From: Escherichia coli
GTDB lineage: Bacteria; Pseudomonadota; Gammaproteobacteria; Enterobacterales; Enterobacteriaceae
Assembly: GCF_009931435.1 (NCBI RefSeq)
Contig: NZ_CP043414.1
Length of the DNA stretch: 64,000 nt
Reading direction: 5' to 3' (one strand)
A program made the translations under genes and the position numbers. The notes under the pieces are model-generated. The model searched no databases. It saw nothing but the letters and a program-made list of their open reading frames with translations, and was not told where the DNA came from. Within the stretch, counting starts at the first letter, position 1. Each line of letters opens with the position of its first letter. Shown here piece by piece: positions 22,067 through 28,348 of this stretch.

Positions 22067-22158
22067 TCACCACGCTAAAGCTCCGTGTCCACATAACCTA
22101 GGTCGGAGGCATGACCTTCTCTGGTTCGTCCCATCTAAAATGTCTATAAAGAACATGG

Positions 22159-22560
22159 TTATTCAATTATTTTTTCTTTGAGTTTATTCTCAATCCAGCT
22201 GTCTTTATACCTGATGAAAATTTGACACTCACCAATATTATCAATGTCTCCAGAATTTGTATTTGGAATTTGTCCAACTGCAACTATAGTTGATTCAAAA
22301 TATTCAACATTGACATTATCTGTAATTATTGAAATTATATAATCATCTGGAATAGAGCCATTAGGAGTTATATTGAAGAAACTAACACCTGAAAATACAA
22401 AATAACCATCTTCTAAGTCTTCATTATCATAAAAATTCCATTCTGTTGTACCATAGGCTATCCTTGAGATTAAATTAACCTGAATTCTAATTTGTTTACT
22501 CCATAAATCAAATTCAATTTTTTTTATTGCTCGATCACCAAGATATATTCTATCAAACAT
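22159..22560 (-). CDS. Hypothetical 133-aa protein in the Rhs-associated AT-rich region; candidate orphan immunity protein
   Basis: ATG start with AGGGGG 5 nt upstream; AT-rich; no recognisable family by eye. Confidence 0.55.
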   Translation of the reverse strand: MFDRIYLGDRAIKKIEFDLWSKQIRIQVNLISRIAYGTTEWNFYDNEDLEDGYFVFSGVSFFNITPNGSIPDDYIISIITDNVNVEYFESTIVAVGQIPNTNSGDIDNIGECQIFIRYKDSWIENKLKEKIIE

Positions 22561-23111
22561 ATTACCCCCCTATTCTAAAAATACTCAGGCATTCCGCACA
22601 TTATATCAGCCTCATCTTGATTGCTTCTCGTTTCCCGATACGGCGGCGCGGGGAGTCATAAAGGTAAGAAATTTCCAGCAGTACGGCGTCCTATTGTTCA
22701 CGGCGGTAATGCACCAGCCAGTATTGGCTATCGTAGTGATAACCGTGTAACCTGCCGCCGCATCGCGTATCTAATGTTCATTCTTTTCCATAAACCGTCC
22801 GTACACATTGTGATAGTAAAAATACAATACATCTTTGCTGATGCGGTTATTCTGCTGCATGTGGGGAGCGCCGAATACTGCTCCCGGTATGGCCAGTAAT
22901 TACTATTTAGTACGACGTTAGGGGGAGTCAATTAATCTCACAGATACTTCAAGTAACAGATGAAAATCGCTCCTGAAATGAAAAAAGAAATTTTTTTGAA
23001 TGTGTTCCTGTCAAATCAAGTGGTTTTTTCGTCGATATGTAGAGTCATATTGTAAACAAAATTGTTACGAAACACACCTTGGTAAAATATTTGAATCGAC
23101 TGTACAGTGGA

Positions 23112-23339
23112 TTATTTTGTGTGTATTACATTCAACACTTGCCCATCTTTTTTCGCTATTAGTATTGTAAAATTTCCTCCTAACGTCTTCGGTTGTTTTC
23201 CCTCGATTTTCCAACAATTATTGTCATCTGTAATACTATATGGTTTCTGAAATTCTGCTTTTTCTTTCCCGTATACATATTTAATGTAAACATATGATAA
23301 TTCCAAAGCCATTTCACGACTATTTACTAAAATTTCCAC
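23112..23339 (-). pseudogene. 5'-truncated paralog of the 21211..21609 secreted-protein gene (signal peptide lost)
   Basis: GTG-initiated 75-aa ORF VEILVNSREMALELSYVYIKYVYGKEKAEFQKPYSI...; homology to the paralog continues 6 codons upstream (VSGKENP) to an in-frame stop inside the palindrome. Confidence 0.6.
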
Positions 23340-23357
23340 TGGATTTTCTTTTCCAGA

Positions 23358-23395
23358 TACTTATTATGATATTGTAAACAATATCATAATAAGTA
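23358..23395. repeat. Perfect 18-bp inverted repeat with 2-bp spacer (tacttattatgatattgt aa acaatatcataataagta)
   Basis: Read directly; one arm is homologous to the coding sequence (..NIIIMRKY..) of the paralog at about 21470-21492, so the palindrome looks like an inverted duplication that truncated the gene. Confidence 0.8.
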
Positions 23396-23582
23396 ATATT
23401 AGTGAGTTTCTCGTGTTCTACACCTATCGAATCTCAAAAGTTGAGGGTAAAACATTACATTCAGAATATATGATATTCCTACCATCGGAATCCATTTTTC
23501 CAAATCGACCTTCTGGTGTGCCTGGATATCCATTAAGAACATGTTTTTCCGAATGGTTAATTTATTTTCTCAGGAAGATGTT

Positions 23583-24152
23583 TTATTTTTCTTCACTACG
23601 AAGCAGTTCATGCTGTATTTTTGTTAAACATTCGTAAGACTCATCTTTGTTCGGGAGATGTGCTGTCATTCGAGCATAAGTTGGCTTCTCATCTTTAAAA
23701 TATTTAACCATGATTGAATTATCAAGGACTGCCAACAACTGAGCTGGATCACTGCTCTTTTTTTGATAGATACCCGCTCTTATATAACTTCTAAACCGAT
23801 CGCCGAGAAACGCCGTTTTTTCTGCTGTATTTATCAACTCCTGCAACGTTCCTTTGATGGCATGATTTTCATTAAGGCGTAGTGACCCAACGCGAATTAA
23901 GAGTCTCGCCCCGCTTGGTGTGAATTTATTATTTTTACATGTACCCAGTTCTGTTTGCCAATAATACTCACCGATGTCCTCATTCTGATACCATCTCCAC
24001 ATGGCTTTATTATTTAAGACAGGAAACGCGGAAAAAATAGTACCCTTAGCGAAAATAGTAAAACAATCATGATCTTTAGCTTGTATTTCGCAATCAGCTA
24101 TAGCACCAAAACTAACAAATATCATCAGCAAAAAGAACAAAAATCTTTTCAT
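23583..24152 (-). CDS. Predicted secreted immunity protein for the RhsB C-terminal toxin (yhhH-like position)
   Basis: 189-aa ORF with Sec signal peptide [21 protein letters not shown]; its ATG overlaps the rhsB stop (ATGA at 24152..24149), typical toxin-immunity coupling; AT-rich. Confidence 0.7.
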
Positions 24153-27100
24153 TTTCTTATTCCTCTCGATGTTCTCTGTTTCATTTTAGCTAAAATTTCA
24201 CCCAAATCATCTATCCCTGCTGTTGCTGGCCCATCGGGTTTATTAATGTCTGGGAATAAATAGGGTTCTGCACAAGTATATCCTGGTGGTAATTGAGTTG
24301 TTGGCCAATTTGTCTGTGGCAGGTAATCACTTGCTGTCTTTGTATCCATCCCTGGATACTGGGGATCATCCTGTGGCGTACAAGTCAGATTTGGTTTTAC
24401 CCACTTCCTGCAATACAGTGTGTAGTCGTAAGGGCTTAATGCTCTGAAGAATGTTTTGAAAACATTAGGCGCACTACTGGCCTGGTCAATAGGATATGGC
24501 AGTCTTAATTGTTTCGCTATGTCTGGCAATTTACTTGGATCGGGCGTAGGCGGTTTGTTGGGTCTCGCTCCATATCCGCCATTATTTAAGTGTCCATATT
24601 TTGATGCCAGTCCCATTGAATCTATATACTGAACCGGATTCAACGGATACTGATAAAAATTCCACCCGCCTTCCAGCCCAATCGGATCCTGAGTGATATA
24701 CCGCCCCTGCAGCGGGTCATAATAGCGATGGCGGTTGTAATACAGGCCGGACTCCTCCTCATACTGCTGACCCGGCAGGCGGATGAGCTGCTGCAGCTGG
24801 TGCGGGTTCTCTTCATTCAGCAGGTTGCCCCACTCATCGTATTCTGCGCACCATTCTGTTGCCCCTTCCGTGCTGACAAGCGCCAGCGGCAGGCCGCGAT
24901 GGTCGCAGTGGTACAGGTGGATTTTTCGCGCCGGCGTGTACACCGGGTCCATCTGGTTTTGCATCTGCTCCACCGTCAGGCCGCACGATGCCAGCCAGCG
25001 GCGGCTTTCCTCACTCACCCGGTCAGCCAGGATTTCACTTTCCAGCCGGTCGGGCATCTGCACCAGCACCGGCGGGAACACCACATGGCCACCGTCTTCA
25101 CCGCCGGACTGCTGAAGAGCGTCCGCCAGGCTGCGGCGCTGCGTTTTCGCCAGCTCACCGGTGGCGGTTTCAACTCTGATGAGTGGTGCGAAGCTCCCCG
25201 GCTGATAAACCGTCTGGATGCGGGTTCTGTCGTTCTGTATCGTGGTCAGCCGGTCGCCGTCCCAGCCGTACCAGGTCACTTCCGGTTTCCGTGACAGCGA
25301 CATCCAGCCCGTCAGGTCCCGTTCACGCCGCCACACCCGTTTTGCCACCCTGCGGCCCAGCGGGTCGTAAAGATAGCGACTTTCGACCAGCGGCTCTGCA
25401 TATTGTGTCCGCGTGTAGTGCACCAGCCGGTGCTGACTGTCGTAATGGTACCGGTGAGTCCGCTCATCATCCGTGCGGATAACCCCTTCCGGGATGAGGT
25501 CGGTTTTCTCCGTCAGCCTGCCGTGACGGTCATACCGGTAAAGATAGTGCGCGTCACGTGTTATACGATTATCCGGCCATATGCAGAGGGTGCTGTCCGG
25601 GTGCAGCTCCGGGTCAGGCAGGCGGTTACCTGCCGGGTCCGTGGCATACGGGATGCGGATATCCAGATTTGAGGTGGTGGTGTGGACGCCGGTCAGCCTG
25701 CCGGAGTCGCTGTAGCTGTAACTCCGGGTCTGGCGCGGGCTGCTGATGCGAATGAGTTCGCCGTTGTCGTTCCAGGTGTAATCGCGGTCATACTGCAGGC
25801 TGTTCAGGTGCTGGCTCTGTAACTGCCCGGCAGGGGTGTAAGCGGTGGTGAGTTCATAACGGCCGAAGCTGCGCAGCGTTTCCCGGTGCAGGCGGTCGCG
25901 GGTGAAATCCACCAGCGGTGTGTCGCCGAGTTTCATCCCTGCCAGGTAACCACTGCCATAAGTCAGCCATTCCACGGCGGGCAGGCTGTCCGGTATACAG
26001 CGGTTCGCCAGCCCCTGCGCGTTGTACGCATGTCTGGTTTCATGCTGCCAGAGCAGTGCTTCCGTCTGCGGGTGATGCACCGTCTGGCGCTCACCGGTCA
26101 GGCGGCCTTTCTCATCATACCCGTAATGCACCGTCACCCGGTGCCCTTCGCTGAGATGGCTGATGCCTGTCAGCCAGCCGCGTTCGTCGTACCGCCACTG
26201 TTCTGCGGTTTCACCATTCACCGTTCGCTGCGTGATGCGGTCTGCTTCGTCATAGTGCCAGTGGGTGACCAGTCCCTCATCCTCGCTGCGGATAAGTTTG
26301 CCGGTCAGGTCGTGGTGATAACGCTGTGTGCGGCCGTCAAAGCCGGTTTCCTGTATCAGCCGGTCGAGTACATCGTAACGGAAGGTGGTGTGGCTGCCGT
26401 TTTCGTTTGTCAGGCGGATGACCCGTCCTGCAGCATCGTATTCCATACTGCGGGTCAGCCCGCCCTGCGTGGTACGGACGGCCTTTCCCCACGCATCGTA
26501 CTGTGCCCCGTATCTGCTGCCGTCCGGGGCAATGACGGTGGTCAGGTCACCGGCGGCGTTGTATTCATACCGCGTTTCATGGCCCTGCGTGTCTTTCACC
26601 GCAATTAACTGTCCATGGCTGTCGTATGCGCGGCACTGGCTCAGGCCTTCCTCGCGGTGCACCGCCGTCATCTGCCCGAAGCGGTCATGGTCATAACGGG
26701 TCTGGTAGCCGGAACAGTCGGTGAAGGTCAGCAACTGACCGTAACGGCTCCACGTCATGGTTTTCCGGCTGCCGGTGGCATCTTCCGTTGCGCAGGGGAA
26801 GTCACTGTGTGGATTATCATAACGGTAGCGGATGATATCGCCGTCAGGGGCAGTTTCCTGAATCAGACGGCCGGATTCATCATATTCCCGGCGTATTTCC
26901 AGCCCGTCAGGCCCGGTGGCTGACGTTAACTGGTTGTGGTGGTTATAGTAAAACGCCGATGCCCTGCCATCCGGCGTGGTGATGCGCGTGATGAGTCCCG
27001 TCACCACATCCGGGCTGTATTCTGTTGTCCGGCCTGCGGCATCCGTCTGTGTCCTGAGCCTGCCCACCGCGTCAAACTGACTCTGCGTGACGCTGCCGTC

Positions 27101-28348
27101 CGCGTGTTCCTTTTTCACCACCCGCTTCAGCCCGCCTTCGCCTGCGGTATGCAGGACTTCATGGCGGTCCAGGCTGTCGGTGATGGTGATGCGGTCTTTC
27201 TCATACTGATACGTGTAGCTTAAGCCTGCCGGGTTTAGCTGTTCTGTCACCCGCCCGTCGCTGTCGTAACGGTAACGGATTTCCGGCCGGCCCGTGTGAC
27301 GGTGCGCCACCATCCGGCCCCGGTATTTATCATCGTAAGTAAAGCTGCGCACCTGTGTATTGCTGCGGTCATACACCGCCGCCAGTTCGCCGCGCGGCGT
27401 CCAGCCATAGCGCACCAGCGGCGTGGCTGGCAGGTTGTCCGGGTATTCCGGGTCGTGCGTCAGCCACACGGCAGACAGACGGATACCGTTGTCCCGGCCA
27501 TATTCCGTGTAGTCCGGCAGGGTATCAGGAAAAGCGGACTGTTCCGCCCCGCCGGAAGAGGCCTGCTGCCGGGCCTCTTCTGCCCGCTGCGCCTGCGTGG
27601 TCAGTGCCAGCCGGAAGTGACGCCCGGCACCATCCGTCACGCCGGTGATTTCGCCGCTGAATTCACCGGCGGCTTCGCGGTGAAACGTCTGTGTGCGCCC
27701 GAAGCGGTCCACCAGCCCGGTCAGTACCCGGTACGGCGGCAGCGGCGCGGGCAGCACCTCATCCGCCTCCGGCACCCGCTCACACCAGCCGAGTACCCAC
27801 CACGGCCCCTGCGGACTGTTCGTCGCCAGATAACGATGCGGACTCAGGCGAAGCTCTTCCGGCAGCGCCTGCCAGAGTGCGGCCAGCCGGTGACCTTCAT
27901 CCAGTCTCAGGACGCCGCCGCGCACCAGCCAGAGTGACTCGCTGCGGCTGTAACCGTCCTCACCGGGAAACAGGTGCTCAAAATACAGGCTTCTGCCGCC
28001 GTTATCACTGAGTATCAGTGTGTTATCGCGCAGCTGTAAGCGGATATCCGCAGGCATTTTCCAGCCGGGGCCGAGAATACCCACCGGCGCGGGCGTTTTT
28101 GTCCGGTAACTGCTGTACGTGCGGGAGAGGATGAACGGCAGCGGTCCGGGCAGGGCAATGTCTGTCTCGCCGGGAAGGACCTTTGCACCGAGCAGGGGAT
28201 TGACCGGATGGCCGGACGTCACCCCGCCGGGGCACACCGAACAGGCCACGCCGGTGGGGGCACCAATACGTACCCCGGCTGAACCCTGAACAATGCTACC
28301 GCCATACTGCGTCATGTCGCCCTGACGCGCCGCCGGTTTTCCGCTCAT
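24149..28348 (-). CDS. rhsB: Rhs-family polymorphic toxin (RhsB-like): N-terminal domain, YD-repeat shell, core ending in the DPxGL motif ([17 protein letters not shown]), and a roughly 177-aa C-terminal variable toxin domain
   Basis: 1399-aa ORF; numerous YD repeats (RYxYDxxGRL); GC-rich core against an AT-poorer C-terminal tip; RBS aagga upstream. Confidence 0.92.

What the first reader, a model, noticed from the sequence alone, without database searches (positions are those of the whole stretch)
22600..22790. GC-rich patch of uncertain origin inside the AT-rich orphan region
About 150-190 bp (..cgatacggcggcgcggggagtcataaaggtaag...cggcggtaatgcaccagccag...cctgccgccgcatcgcg..) is visibly more GC-rich than its surroundings and has no convincing ORF. 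One minus-strand frame gives ..GRLHGYHYDSQYWLVHYRREQ*, which loosely recalls YD-repeat/Rhs core-end sequence, but I could not establish homology by eye. It may be another core-fragment relic or a remnant of a different element.
Basis: seen in the sequence. Interest (0 to 1): 0.3.

Follow-up and report, generated by a model that had tools for sequence, protein, structure and literature searches.

The report
Decayed Rhs toxin-gene core relic
The GC-rich patch is a dead, unannotated 263-bp scrap of an Rhs toxin gene's shell-coding core, left next to an orphan immunity gene after a deletion removed the toxin. It is an ordinary kind of genomic fossil, though unusually old and from a lineage that is not the resident E. 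coli one.

Summary
Window 22600-22790 is 48.7% GC against 27-32% in its flanks, and it has no credible ORF. The patch belongs to a 263-nt pseudogene relic on the minus strand (22891..22629). The relic matches positions 939-1019 of the 1261-position NCBIfam RHS_core model (E 2.8e-13), so it is an internal piece of the Rhs core, not the core end. It carries two 1-nt deletions and two in-frame TAG stops.

Its nearest relatives are Rhs cores from Salmonella and Citrobacter (76% and 74% nt). The rhs gene 1.3 kb upstream is more distant (65% over 119 nt). No intact core of this lineage turned up in 5,426 complete E. coli genomes.

At 22632..22627 the relic joins the last 58 nt of an Rhs C-terminal toxin ORF through a 6-nt microhomology (AACGGG). 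An intact DUF6258 gene follows, which is probably the cognate immunity gene. Intact toxin plus DUF6258 pairs exist in 58 E. coli genomes and in Rahnella. This implies a deletion of about 1.2 kb.

The same relic, with the same lesions and junction, is in 874 of 5,426 E. coli genomes and in E. albertii. Derived changes run 29 GC→AT to 3 AT→GC and are spread evenly over codon positions, which indicates neutral decay. Interest is low.

The parts
22629..22891 (-). Rhs core pseudogene relic (263 nt), equivalent to about 88 codons and to positions 939-1019 of the 1261-position RHS_core model. Degenerate YD repeats are readable: YFYYHNVYGRF, YHYDSQYWLV, YLYDSPRRRIGKR.
   Evidence: tblastn vs the window's Rhs: aa 926-950 and 963-1004. 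NF041261 E 2.8e-13. 76%/265 nt to the S. enterica houtenae Rhs core, L007 146-410, E 4e-52. Repaired translation 54/87 identical to Salmonella.
22860..22861 (-). Frameshift 1: a 1-nt deletion relative to the Salmonella and Citrobacter cores (CCCAC-ATG).
   Evidence: Alignments, coordinates. Shared with E. albertii.
22771..22773 (-). In-frame TAG stop 1 (CAG Gln in Salmonella).
   Evidence: Shared with E. albertii.
22761..22762 (-). Frameshift 2: a 1-nt deletion (GCGAT-GCGG).
   Evidence: Shared with E. albertii.
22691..22693 (-). In-frame TAG stop 2 (CAG Gln in Salmonella).
   Evidence: Shared with E. albertii.
22627..22632 (-). Deletion junction. The 6-nt microhomology AACGGG (AACGAG in this window through a later G>A change at 22628) is shared by the core sequence (Salmonella ..GGGAAACGGGTG..) and the toxin 3' end (O55:H7 ..GTCAACGGGAAGC..).
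   Evidence: The polymorphism at 22628 is.
22575..22632 (-). Last 58 nt (19 codons plus the TAG at 22577..22575) of an Rhs C-terminal toxin ORF (..SNQDEADIMCGMPEYF*). The rest of the toxin is deleted.
   Evidence: 97.6-98% identity starting exactly at 22632 to the intact toxin genes of O139:H1 P15-25 (L004 6001-) and O55:H7 RM12579 (L010 6472-).
22159..22560 (-). Intact DUF6258 gene (133 aa). It is the inferred cognate immunity gene of the deleted toxin and the likely reason this stretch persists.
   Evidence: Pfam PF19772 E 2.3e-25. It lies directly downstream of the homologous toxin in E. coli O55:H7 and P15-25 and in Rahnella sikkimica.
23112..23339 (-). Upstream neighbour: an NTF2-fold immunity gene (Imm-NTF2-2), another toxin-less orphan. 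It marks the 5' side of the relic's module.
   Evidence: Pfam PF15631 E 9e-21. RefSeq annotation.

Best explanation
The patch is a non-functional fossil. An rhs gene or dissociated rhs 'tip' once lay downstream of the ybfC and NTF2 immunity genes. Its core belonged to a Salmonella/Citrobacter-like sub-lineage, and it carried a particular C-terminal toxin followed by a DUF6258 immunity gene. A deletion of about 1.2 kb between two AACGGG microhomologies then removed the rest of the core (from about profile position 1020 onward) and all but the last 19 codons of the toxin. The immunity gene survived. The stranded core scrap was originally about 62% GC, like Rhs cores generally. It has since drifted by AT-biased mutation to 49% GC and picked up two frameshifts and two nonsense codons. 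It still stands out as GC-rich only because its surroundings are very AT-rich toxin/immunity DNA. It has no activity of its own. It travels with the orphan immunity array, which has moved between rhs loci (rhsC in BL21 and O157, rhsB here). Shown here: the homology, the boundaries, the lesions, the junction sequence, the distribution, and the direction of the substitutions. Inferred: that the core scrap and the toxin tail were once one gene, that the deletion was microhomology-mediated, and that DUF6258 confers immunity.
For: Homology to the Rhs core. Boundaries and lesions. Lineage: 76% to the S. enterica houtenae core, 74% to Citrobacter sp. wls619, 70% to an Enterobacter MAG, 65% (119 nt only) to the window's own core, and 58% with 16 gaps to K-12 rhsD. 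The best protein hits among 1.84 billion representatives are Rhs fragments from S. bongori, S. enterica and C. amalonaticus. blastn at word size 11 across 5,426 E. coli genomes found only copies of the relic itself. Junction and intact comparators. The toxin-DUF6258 pairing is conserved in Rahnella. Neutral decay: 35 derived changes shared by E. coli and E. albertii, split 14/10/11 over codon positions, with 29 GC→AT against 3 AT→GC. A 5-nt deletion in O157 and IS3 insertions are tolerated. Age: E. albertii NBRC 107761 has the same array at 93.5% over 1301 nt with identical frameshifts, stops and junction. No Rfam match. Promoter-like sites are not above chance.
Against: I found no intact gene that combines a relic-like core with this toxin and DUF6258. 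All intact E. coli carriers have a resident-type core at these positions (64% over 119 nt). The single-gene ancestry is therefore unproven. The codon-position test has low power: 35 changes, and functional Salmonella vs Citrobacter cores are themselves only mildly third-position biased (7/10/16). The imbalance of 35 shared changes against 12 lineage-specific ones implies either a very long decay before the E. coli/E. albertii split or later transfer between the two species, and I could not tell which. Transcription of the region was not examined.
Confidence: 0.85

Rival explanations
1. The scrap and the toxin tail were never part of one gene. Two unrelated rearrangements, such as successive tip displacements and deletions, placed a foreign core scrap next to the 3' end of a resident-core toxin/DUF6258 module.
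For: Every intact carrier of the toxin seen in E. coli has a resident-type core. Orphan arrays at rhs loci are known to be built by serial insertion and deletion (PMC2935791).
Against: The junction falls exactly on a 6-nt identity between the core and toxin sequences. Order and strand are those of a single core-toxin-immunity unit. Either history leaves the same non-functional relic.
Confidence: 0.2
2. The patch is a heavily decayed piece of the resident E. coli RhsA/B/C-type core, the same lineage as the gene upstream, not of a foreign lineage.
For: It lies 1.3 kb downstream of a resident rhs gene. Published work finds dissociated core fragments nearly identical to the upstream core (PMC2935791).
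Against: It is 76% identical to the Salmonella core over its full 263 nt. It aligns to the resident core only over 119 nt at 65%. It lacks the resident core's 12-nt block at the [12 protein letters not shown] stretch and shares the Salmonella/Citrobacter arrangement there. At sites where Salmonella and Citrobacter agree, the relic's differences are almost all GC→AT decay.
Confidence: 0.04
3. The stretch is kept because it does something: a promoter or 5' leader for the orphan DUF6258 gene, a small RNA, or a small protein.
For: It has persisted in 874 E. coli genomes and in E. albertii. DUF6258 needs transcription from somewhere. One promoter-like site (22931..22902, minus strand) lies just upstream of the relic.
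Against: Promoter-like sites are at the chance level, 7 found against 6.1 expected. No Rfam family matches. Indels and IS3 insertions are tolerated. Substitutions look neutral and AT-biased. The ORFs have no family match and are broken in O157. Gene callers' products for this spot (P0001, P0002, P0038) differ in frame between strains.
Confidence: 0.05
4. It is a remnant of an insertion sequence, prophage or other mobile element.
For: IS elements (ISEc1/H-repeat, IS3) are frequent in this array.
Against: Genomes that have it carry a median of one copy, always in the same context, and never on an E. coli plasmid. No phage record matches the relic. The only plasmid-collection hit to the relic is one 10-kb E. 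coli record carrying the whole stretch. The only protein-family match is RHS_core.
Confidence: 0.01

Closest known systems
Dissociated (orphan) rhs C-terminal tips and rhs gene relics downstream of rhs genes (Jackson et al. 2009, PMC2935791; orphan rhs-CT/rhsI modules, Poole et al. 2011, PMC3150448)
   Same: It lies in the AT-rich trough downstream of a full-length rhs gene. It has the order core fragment, then toxin remnant, then immunity gene. It shows as a GC peak marking the core fragment. It is degenerate, with frameshifts and stops, and transcriptionally silent in appearance.
   Different: The core piece is internal and lacks the hyperconserved core end and the PxxxxDPxGL motif. The toxin is reduced to 19 codons. 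The core fragment is not near-identical to the upstream core, as reported for typical dissociated tips, but only about 65% identical, and it is closer to Salmonella/Citrobacter cores.
Annotated Rhs-fragment pseudogenes of E. coli K-12 and relatives (e.g. ylbH downstream of rhsD-ybbC; the 'RHS domain-containing protein' pseudogenes that PGAP marks downstream of DUF6258 in BL21(DE3))
   Same: Short non-functional Rhs pieces interleaved with orphan immunity genes.
   Different: This one is too decayed for PGAP and is annotated in none of the genomes inspected.
Rhs cores of Salmonella enterica subsp. houtenae, S. bongori and Citrobacter spp. (P0055/L007, P0003, L025, P0004/L008)
   Same: The best sequence matches: 76/74/67% nt and 62% aa over the repaired frame. 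They share the indel pattern and the HYRREQQ and GRRIGKR motifs.
   Different: Those are parts of reading frames with a complete core end and toxin. The relic is truncated at both ends and disabled. Clade membership in the sense of Jackson et al. was not formally determined. The Salmonella protein is 59% identical to the E. coli core and 43% to a Rahnella one.

Membership tests
Rhs core (NCBIfam NF041261 RHS_core; YD-repeat shell) | Significant sequence similarity to the core model or to bona fide cores | tested here: met
   NF041261 E 2.8e-13, positions 939-1019 of 1261. tblastn E 2.7e-9. blastn E 4e-52 to a Salmonella core.
Rhs core (NCBIfam NF041261 RHS_core; YD-repeat shell) | Full-length open reading frame reaching the model's curated cut-off (2000 bits) | tested here: not met
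   48.6 bits. Only about 81 of 1261 positions are present, with two frameshifts and two TAG stops. It is a pseudogene fragment, not a member gene.
Rhs core (NCBIfam NF041261 RHS_core; YD-repeat shell) | Core-end motif (PxxxxDPxGL) and the RHS repeat-associated core domain TIGR03696 | tested here: not met
   The relic stops at profile position 1019. TIGR03696 matches the comparator orphan from P15-25 but not the relic.
Dissociated/orphan rhs tip module (core 3' fragment + toxin CT + immunity gene) | Core fragment followed by a variable C-terminal toxin domain | tested here: not met
   Only the last 58 nt of the toxin ORF remain. The intact version exists elsewhere.
Dissociated/orphan rhs tip module (core 3' fragment + toxin CT + immunity gene) | Cognate immunity gene immediately downstream | tested here: inconclusive
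   An intact DUF6258 gene starts 14 nt after the toxin stop. The pairing is conserved in E. coli and Rahnella. Immunity function has not been tested experimentally, and I found no literature on DUF6258.
Dissociated/orphan rhs tip module (core 3' fragment + toxin CT + immunity gene) | Core fragment nearly identical to the core of the rhs gene upstream (Jackson et al. 2009) | tested here: not met
   65% over 119 nt to the upstream core, against 76% over 265 nt to Salmonella.
Insertion sequence or other mobile-element remnant | Multiple dispersed copies, or similarity to transposase or IS ends | tested here: not met
   A median of one place per genome that has it, always in a fixed context. No IS-like family hit. 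No phage hit to the relic, and a single plasmid-collection record carrying the whole stretch.
Known structured RNA (Rfam 15) | Covariance-model match | tested here: not met
   0 matches at E ≤ 1 over 21800-23600 on both strands.

The most novel reading that the evidence does not exclude
The relic may be the only surviving trace in Escherichia of an Rhs core lineage now seen intact only in Salmonella and Citrobacter. Together with the Salmonella-like 155-nt spacer next to it, this would mean the toxin/DUF6258 module entered an ancestor of E. coli and E. albertii on a foreign core. That would be a tip exchange across a greater core distance than the 'near-identical core' rule of the C-terminal displacement model allows. 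A further step would be that the scrap is retained because it still serves, for example as a leader or promoter for the orphan immunity gene.
Probability: 0.25. Interest if true: 0.35.

Novelty: new member of a known kind. Interest (0 to 1): 0.15.

Why it matters
There are three modest reasons. First, it explains an unannotated stretch present in about 16% of complete E. coli genomes, including BL21(DE3) and O157:H7 EDL933. Second, it gives a clean, datable example of how orphan immunity genes are made: a microhomology deletion removes the toxin and most of the core and spares the immunity gene. Third, it shows that a dissociated core fragment can come from a sub-lineage different from the resident rhs gene, which slightly qualifies the published rule that such fragments match the upstream core. 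None of this changes how Rhs systems are understood.

Tried and rejected
1. A word-indexed protein search with the repaired fragment found only a spurious 55-aa gene call on the same relic. The full HMMER scan was needed to reach the Salmonella and Citrobacter relatives.
2. The partial hits H24 and H78, which looked like alternative junctions near 22796, turned out to be IS3 insertions.
3. P0038, an apparently different continuation of the relic, comes from an indel-rich assembly (39 gaps in 1587 nt) with a further deletion from 22618 to 20897. It was not informative.
4. The promoter/terminator scan, the Rfam scan and RNA folding of the adjacent spacer (z-scores 1.0 and 0.04) gave nothing above chance.
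5. The plasmid and phage searches gave no mobile-element origin for the relic. They did reveal the Salmonella-like spacer.
6. A search for the toxin domain in other taxa found only 55-69% relatives (Rahnella, Diaphorobacter, metagenomes), and none was tied to a relic-type core.
7. The literature searches found no description of DUF6258 and none of this relic in ybfC/rhs papers.

Full report
**Context.** The window covers the E. coli rhsB locus. The gene order is yhiI, rbbA, yhhJ, a truncated ISEc1/H-repeat gene, an AT-rich array of orphan genes, ybfC, a 1399-aa rhs gene on the minus strand (28348..24149), then nikR, nikE and nikD. On the minus strand, downstream of rhs, come the following features:
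- ybfC (24152..23583)
- an NTF2-fold immunity gene (23339..23112)
- the patch under study
- a DUF6258 gene (22560..22159)
- a second tiny Rhs scrap
- pentapeptide-repeat and YbbC/YhhH genes
- a yibA fragment

**Observation.** Window 22600-22790 is 48.7% GC. The gene to its left is 27.4%, the stretch to its right is 31.7%, and the whole orphan region is 35.6%. The patch holds the highest-GC 224-nt window of that region. No ORF here is credible. The 92-aa (+) and 67-aa (−) ORFs start at TTG. They are cut by a 5-nt deletion in O157:H7 and by IS3 insertions in other strains. RefSeq annotates nothing at this spot in any genome examined.

**What it is.** tblastn of the window's own Rhs protein finds two colinear matches on the minus strand: aa 926-950 to 22851..22777 and aa 963-1004 to 22753..22628. 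They lie in different frames, and the second contains a stop (combined E 2.7e-9). After frame repair, the conceptual protein matches NCBIfam NF041261 (RHS_core) at positions 939-1019 of 1261, E 2.8e-13. It is therefore an internal piece of the YD-repeat shell, not the core end. TIGR03696 and the DPxGL end motif are absent.

An exhaustive HMMER scan of 1.84 billion representative proteins returned spurious gene calls on the same relic at the top. Next came Rhs fragments from S. bongori, S. enterica and Citrobacter amalonaticus at 49-62% identity.

At the DNA level the relic (22891..22629, 263 nt) compares as follows:

| Comparator | Identity |
|---|---|
| S. enterica subsp. houtenae Rhs core | 76% over 265 nt, two 1-nt gaps, E 4e-52 |
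| Citrobacter sp. wls619 | 74% |
| Enterobacter MAG | 70% |
| C. amalonaticus | 62-67% |
| rhs core 1.3 kb upstream in the window | 65% over 119 nt only |
| K-12 rhsD | 58% with 16 gaps |

A word-11 blastn over 5,426 complete E. coli genomes found only copies of the relic itself. No intact E. coli core of this sub-lineage was therefore detected.

**Lesions.** Relative to the Salmonella and Citrobacter reading frame, the relic has four lesions and is truncated at both ends:
- a 1-nt deletion between 22861 and 22860
- a 1-nt deletion between 22762 and 22761
- a CAG→TAG stop at 22773..22771
- a CAG→TAG stop at 22693..22691

The repaired translation is 54/87 identical to Salmonella.

**The 3' junction.** Homology to the core ends at ..ATCGGGAAACG (22629). 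From 22632 downward the window is 97.6-98% identical to DNA that, in two other strains, forms the last 58 nt of an Rhs C-terminal toxin ORF followed by DUF6258. In O139:H1 P15-25 this is an orphan tip. In O55:H7 RM12579 it is the full-length gene at the rhsA locus. The two homologies overlap on AACGGG. Salmonella core reads AAACGGGTG, the toxin reads CAACGGGAAG, and E. albertii still reads AAACGGGAAG. This window has a later G>A change at 22628. In the intact O55:H7 gene, the equivalent core position and the tail start are 1,209 nt apart.

I infer a microhomology-mediated deletion of about 1.2 kb that removed the distal core and the toxin and spared the immunity gene. The toxin-DUF6258 pairing recurs in Rahnella sikkimica, with 56% and 44% aa identity. 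This supports DUF6258 as the cognate immunity protein, but it rests on conserved synteny only. No paper mentions DUF6258.

**Distribution and age.** The 401-bp stretch occurs in 874 of 5,426 E. coli genomes at 95-100% identity, with a median of one copy. It always lies between the NTF2 and DUF6258 genes. It is usually at the rhsC locus (BL21(DE3), EDL933), and here it is at rhsB. The intact toxin is in only 58 genomes. The E. albertii type strain has the same array at 93.5% over 1301 nt, with the same two frameshifts, both stops, the same 5' edge and the same junction. The relic therefore predates the split of the two species, or it was exchanged between them.

**Why it is GC-rich.** I polarised changes using sites where Salmonella and Citrobacter agree. 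Thirty-five derived changes are shared by the E. coli and E. albertii relics. They are spread 14/10/11 over codon positions, and 29 are GC→AT against 3 AT→GC (the same trend is). The Salmonella homologue is 62% GC and the relic is 49%. The patch is thus a high-GC Rhs core segment partway through AT-biased neutral decay. It remains conspicuous only against 27-32% GC neighbours.

**Function.** None is indicated. Promoter-like sites are at the chance level. Rfam has no match. Indels and IS insertions are tolerated. Its persistence is most simply explained by linkage to immunity genes under selection.

**Comparison with the literature.** Jackson et al. 2009 (PMC2935791) described dissociated rhs tips and relics as GC peaks in AT-rich troughs. 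They stated that such core fragments are almost identical to the upstream core, and that exchange is limited to the same clade. They also noted that clade I occurs in S. bongori, some S. enterica and C. rodentium. The present relic fits the general kind but departs in three ways. It is an internal fragment. It has lost its tip. It comes from a different sub-lineage than the resident core. I did not formally assign a clade. The Salmonella relative is 59% identical at the protein level to the E. coli core and 43% to a Rahnella core.

**Uncertainties.** I found no intact gene with a relic-type core, this toxin and DUF6258, so common ancestry of the scrap and the toxin tail is inferred from order, strand and the junction microhomology. 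The codon-position test is weak. Vertical inheritance and lateral sharing with E. albertii were not distinguished. Expression was not examined.

**Verdict.** This is an ordinary, previously unannotated Rhs pseudogene fragment with a well-resolved origin. Interest is low.

Noticed in passing
window 22928-23083: The spacer between the NTF2 immunity gene and the relic is 81% identical (158-nt alignment, 4 gaps, E 8e-35) to a Salmonella intergenic stretch immediately 3' of the GNAT toxin gene of a toxin-antitoxin pair (STM4318 homologue; S. Infantis SARB27 and the pPJT1 record). That is not an rhs context. The indels are not multiples of three, and the 31-aa ORF 22960..23055 (+) is not conserved. 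Neither Rfam nor folding gave a signal. Its nature is unexplained.
   Followed up: partly
window 22525 (within DUF6258 gene 22159-22560): A poly-A tract is A8 here, in strain 2014C-3075 and in the O55:H7-type allele, but A7 in BL21(DE3), EDL933 and two other strains. The A7 form shifts the frame, so RefSeq annotates only N-terminally shortened DUF6258 proteins there (270-321 nt against 402 nt). The orphan immunity gene is itself decaying in many lineages.
   Followed up: partly
window 21995-22039 (GC-rich patch about 21950-22100): A second, much shorter Rhs core scrap lies downstream of DUF6258. LALISTERTTAWYAE aligns to core aa 1155-1169, [19 protein letters not shown] marks the equivalent 87 nt as an 'RHS domain-containing protein' pseudogene in BL21(DE3), and a longer 285-nt version exists in O55:H7 and P15-25.
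   Followed up: partly
window about 20345-20392 (ISEc1/H-repeat gene yhhI): Compared with the otherwise near-identical strain 2020CK-00188, the window lacks about 713 nt inside the ISEc1 transposase gene (L001 4120-4832). This leaves only a 144-aa ORF at 20344..20778.
   Followed up: partly
window 24149-28348 and 20800-24148 vs L002/L003: The rhs tip, ybfC and the whole orphan array found here at the rhsB locus (next to nikR) sit at the rhsC locus (kdp-ybfA ... ybgA-phrB) in BL21(DE3), O157:H7 EDL933 and others. This indicates that the entire distal rhs segment has been exchanged between rhs loci.
   Followed up: no
L004 5156-6058 / L010 2252-6529 (comparators): The toxin domain paired with DUF6258 (..NPIGHANNSTPHAHAHLPGTG..) has no Pfam or NCBIfam assignment beyond the Rhs core part. 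Its relatives are 55-69% identical in Rahnella, Diaphorobacter and metagenomes. Its activity is unknown.
   Followed up: no
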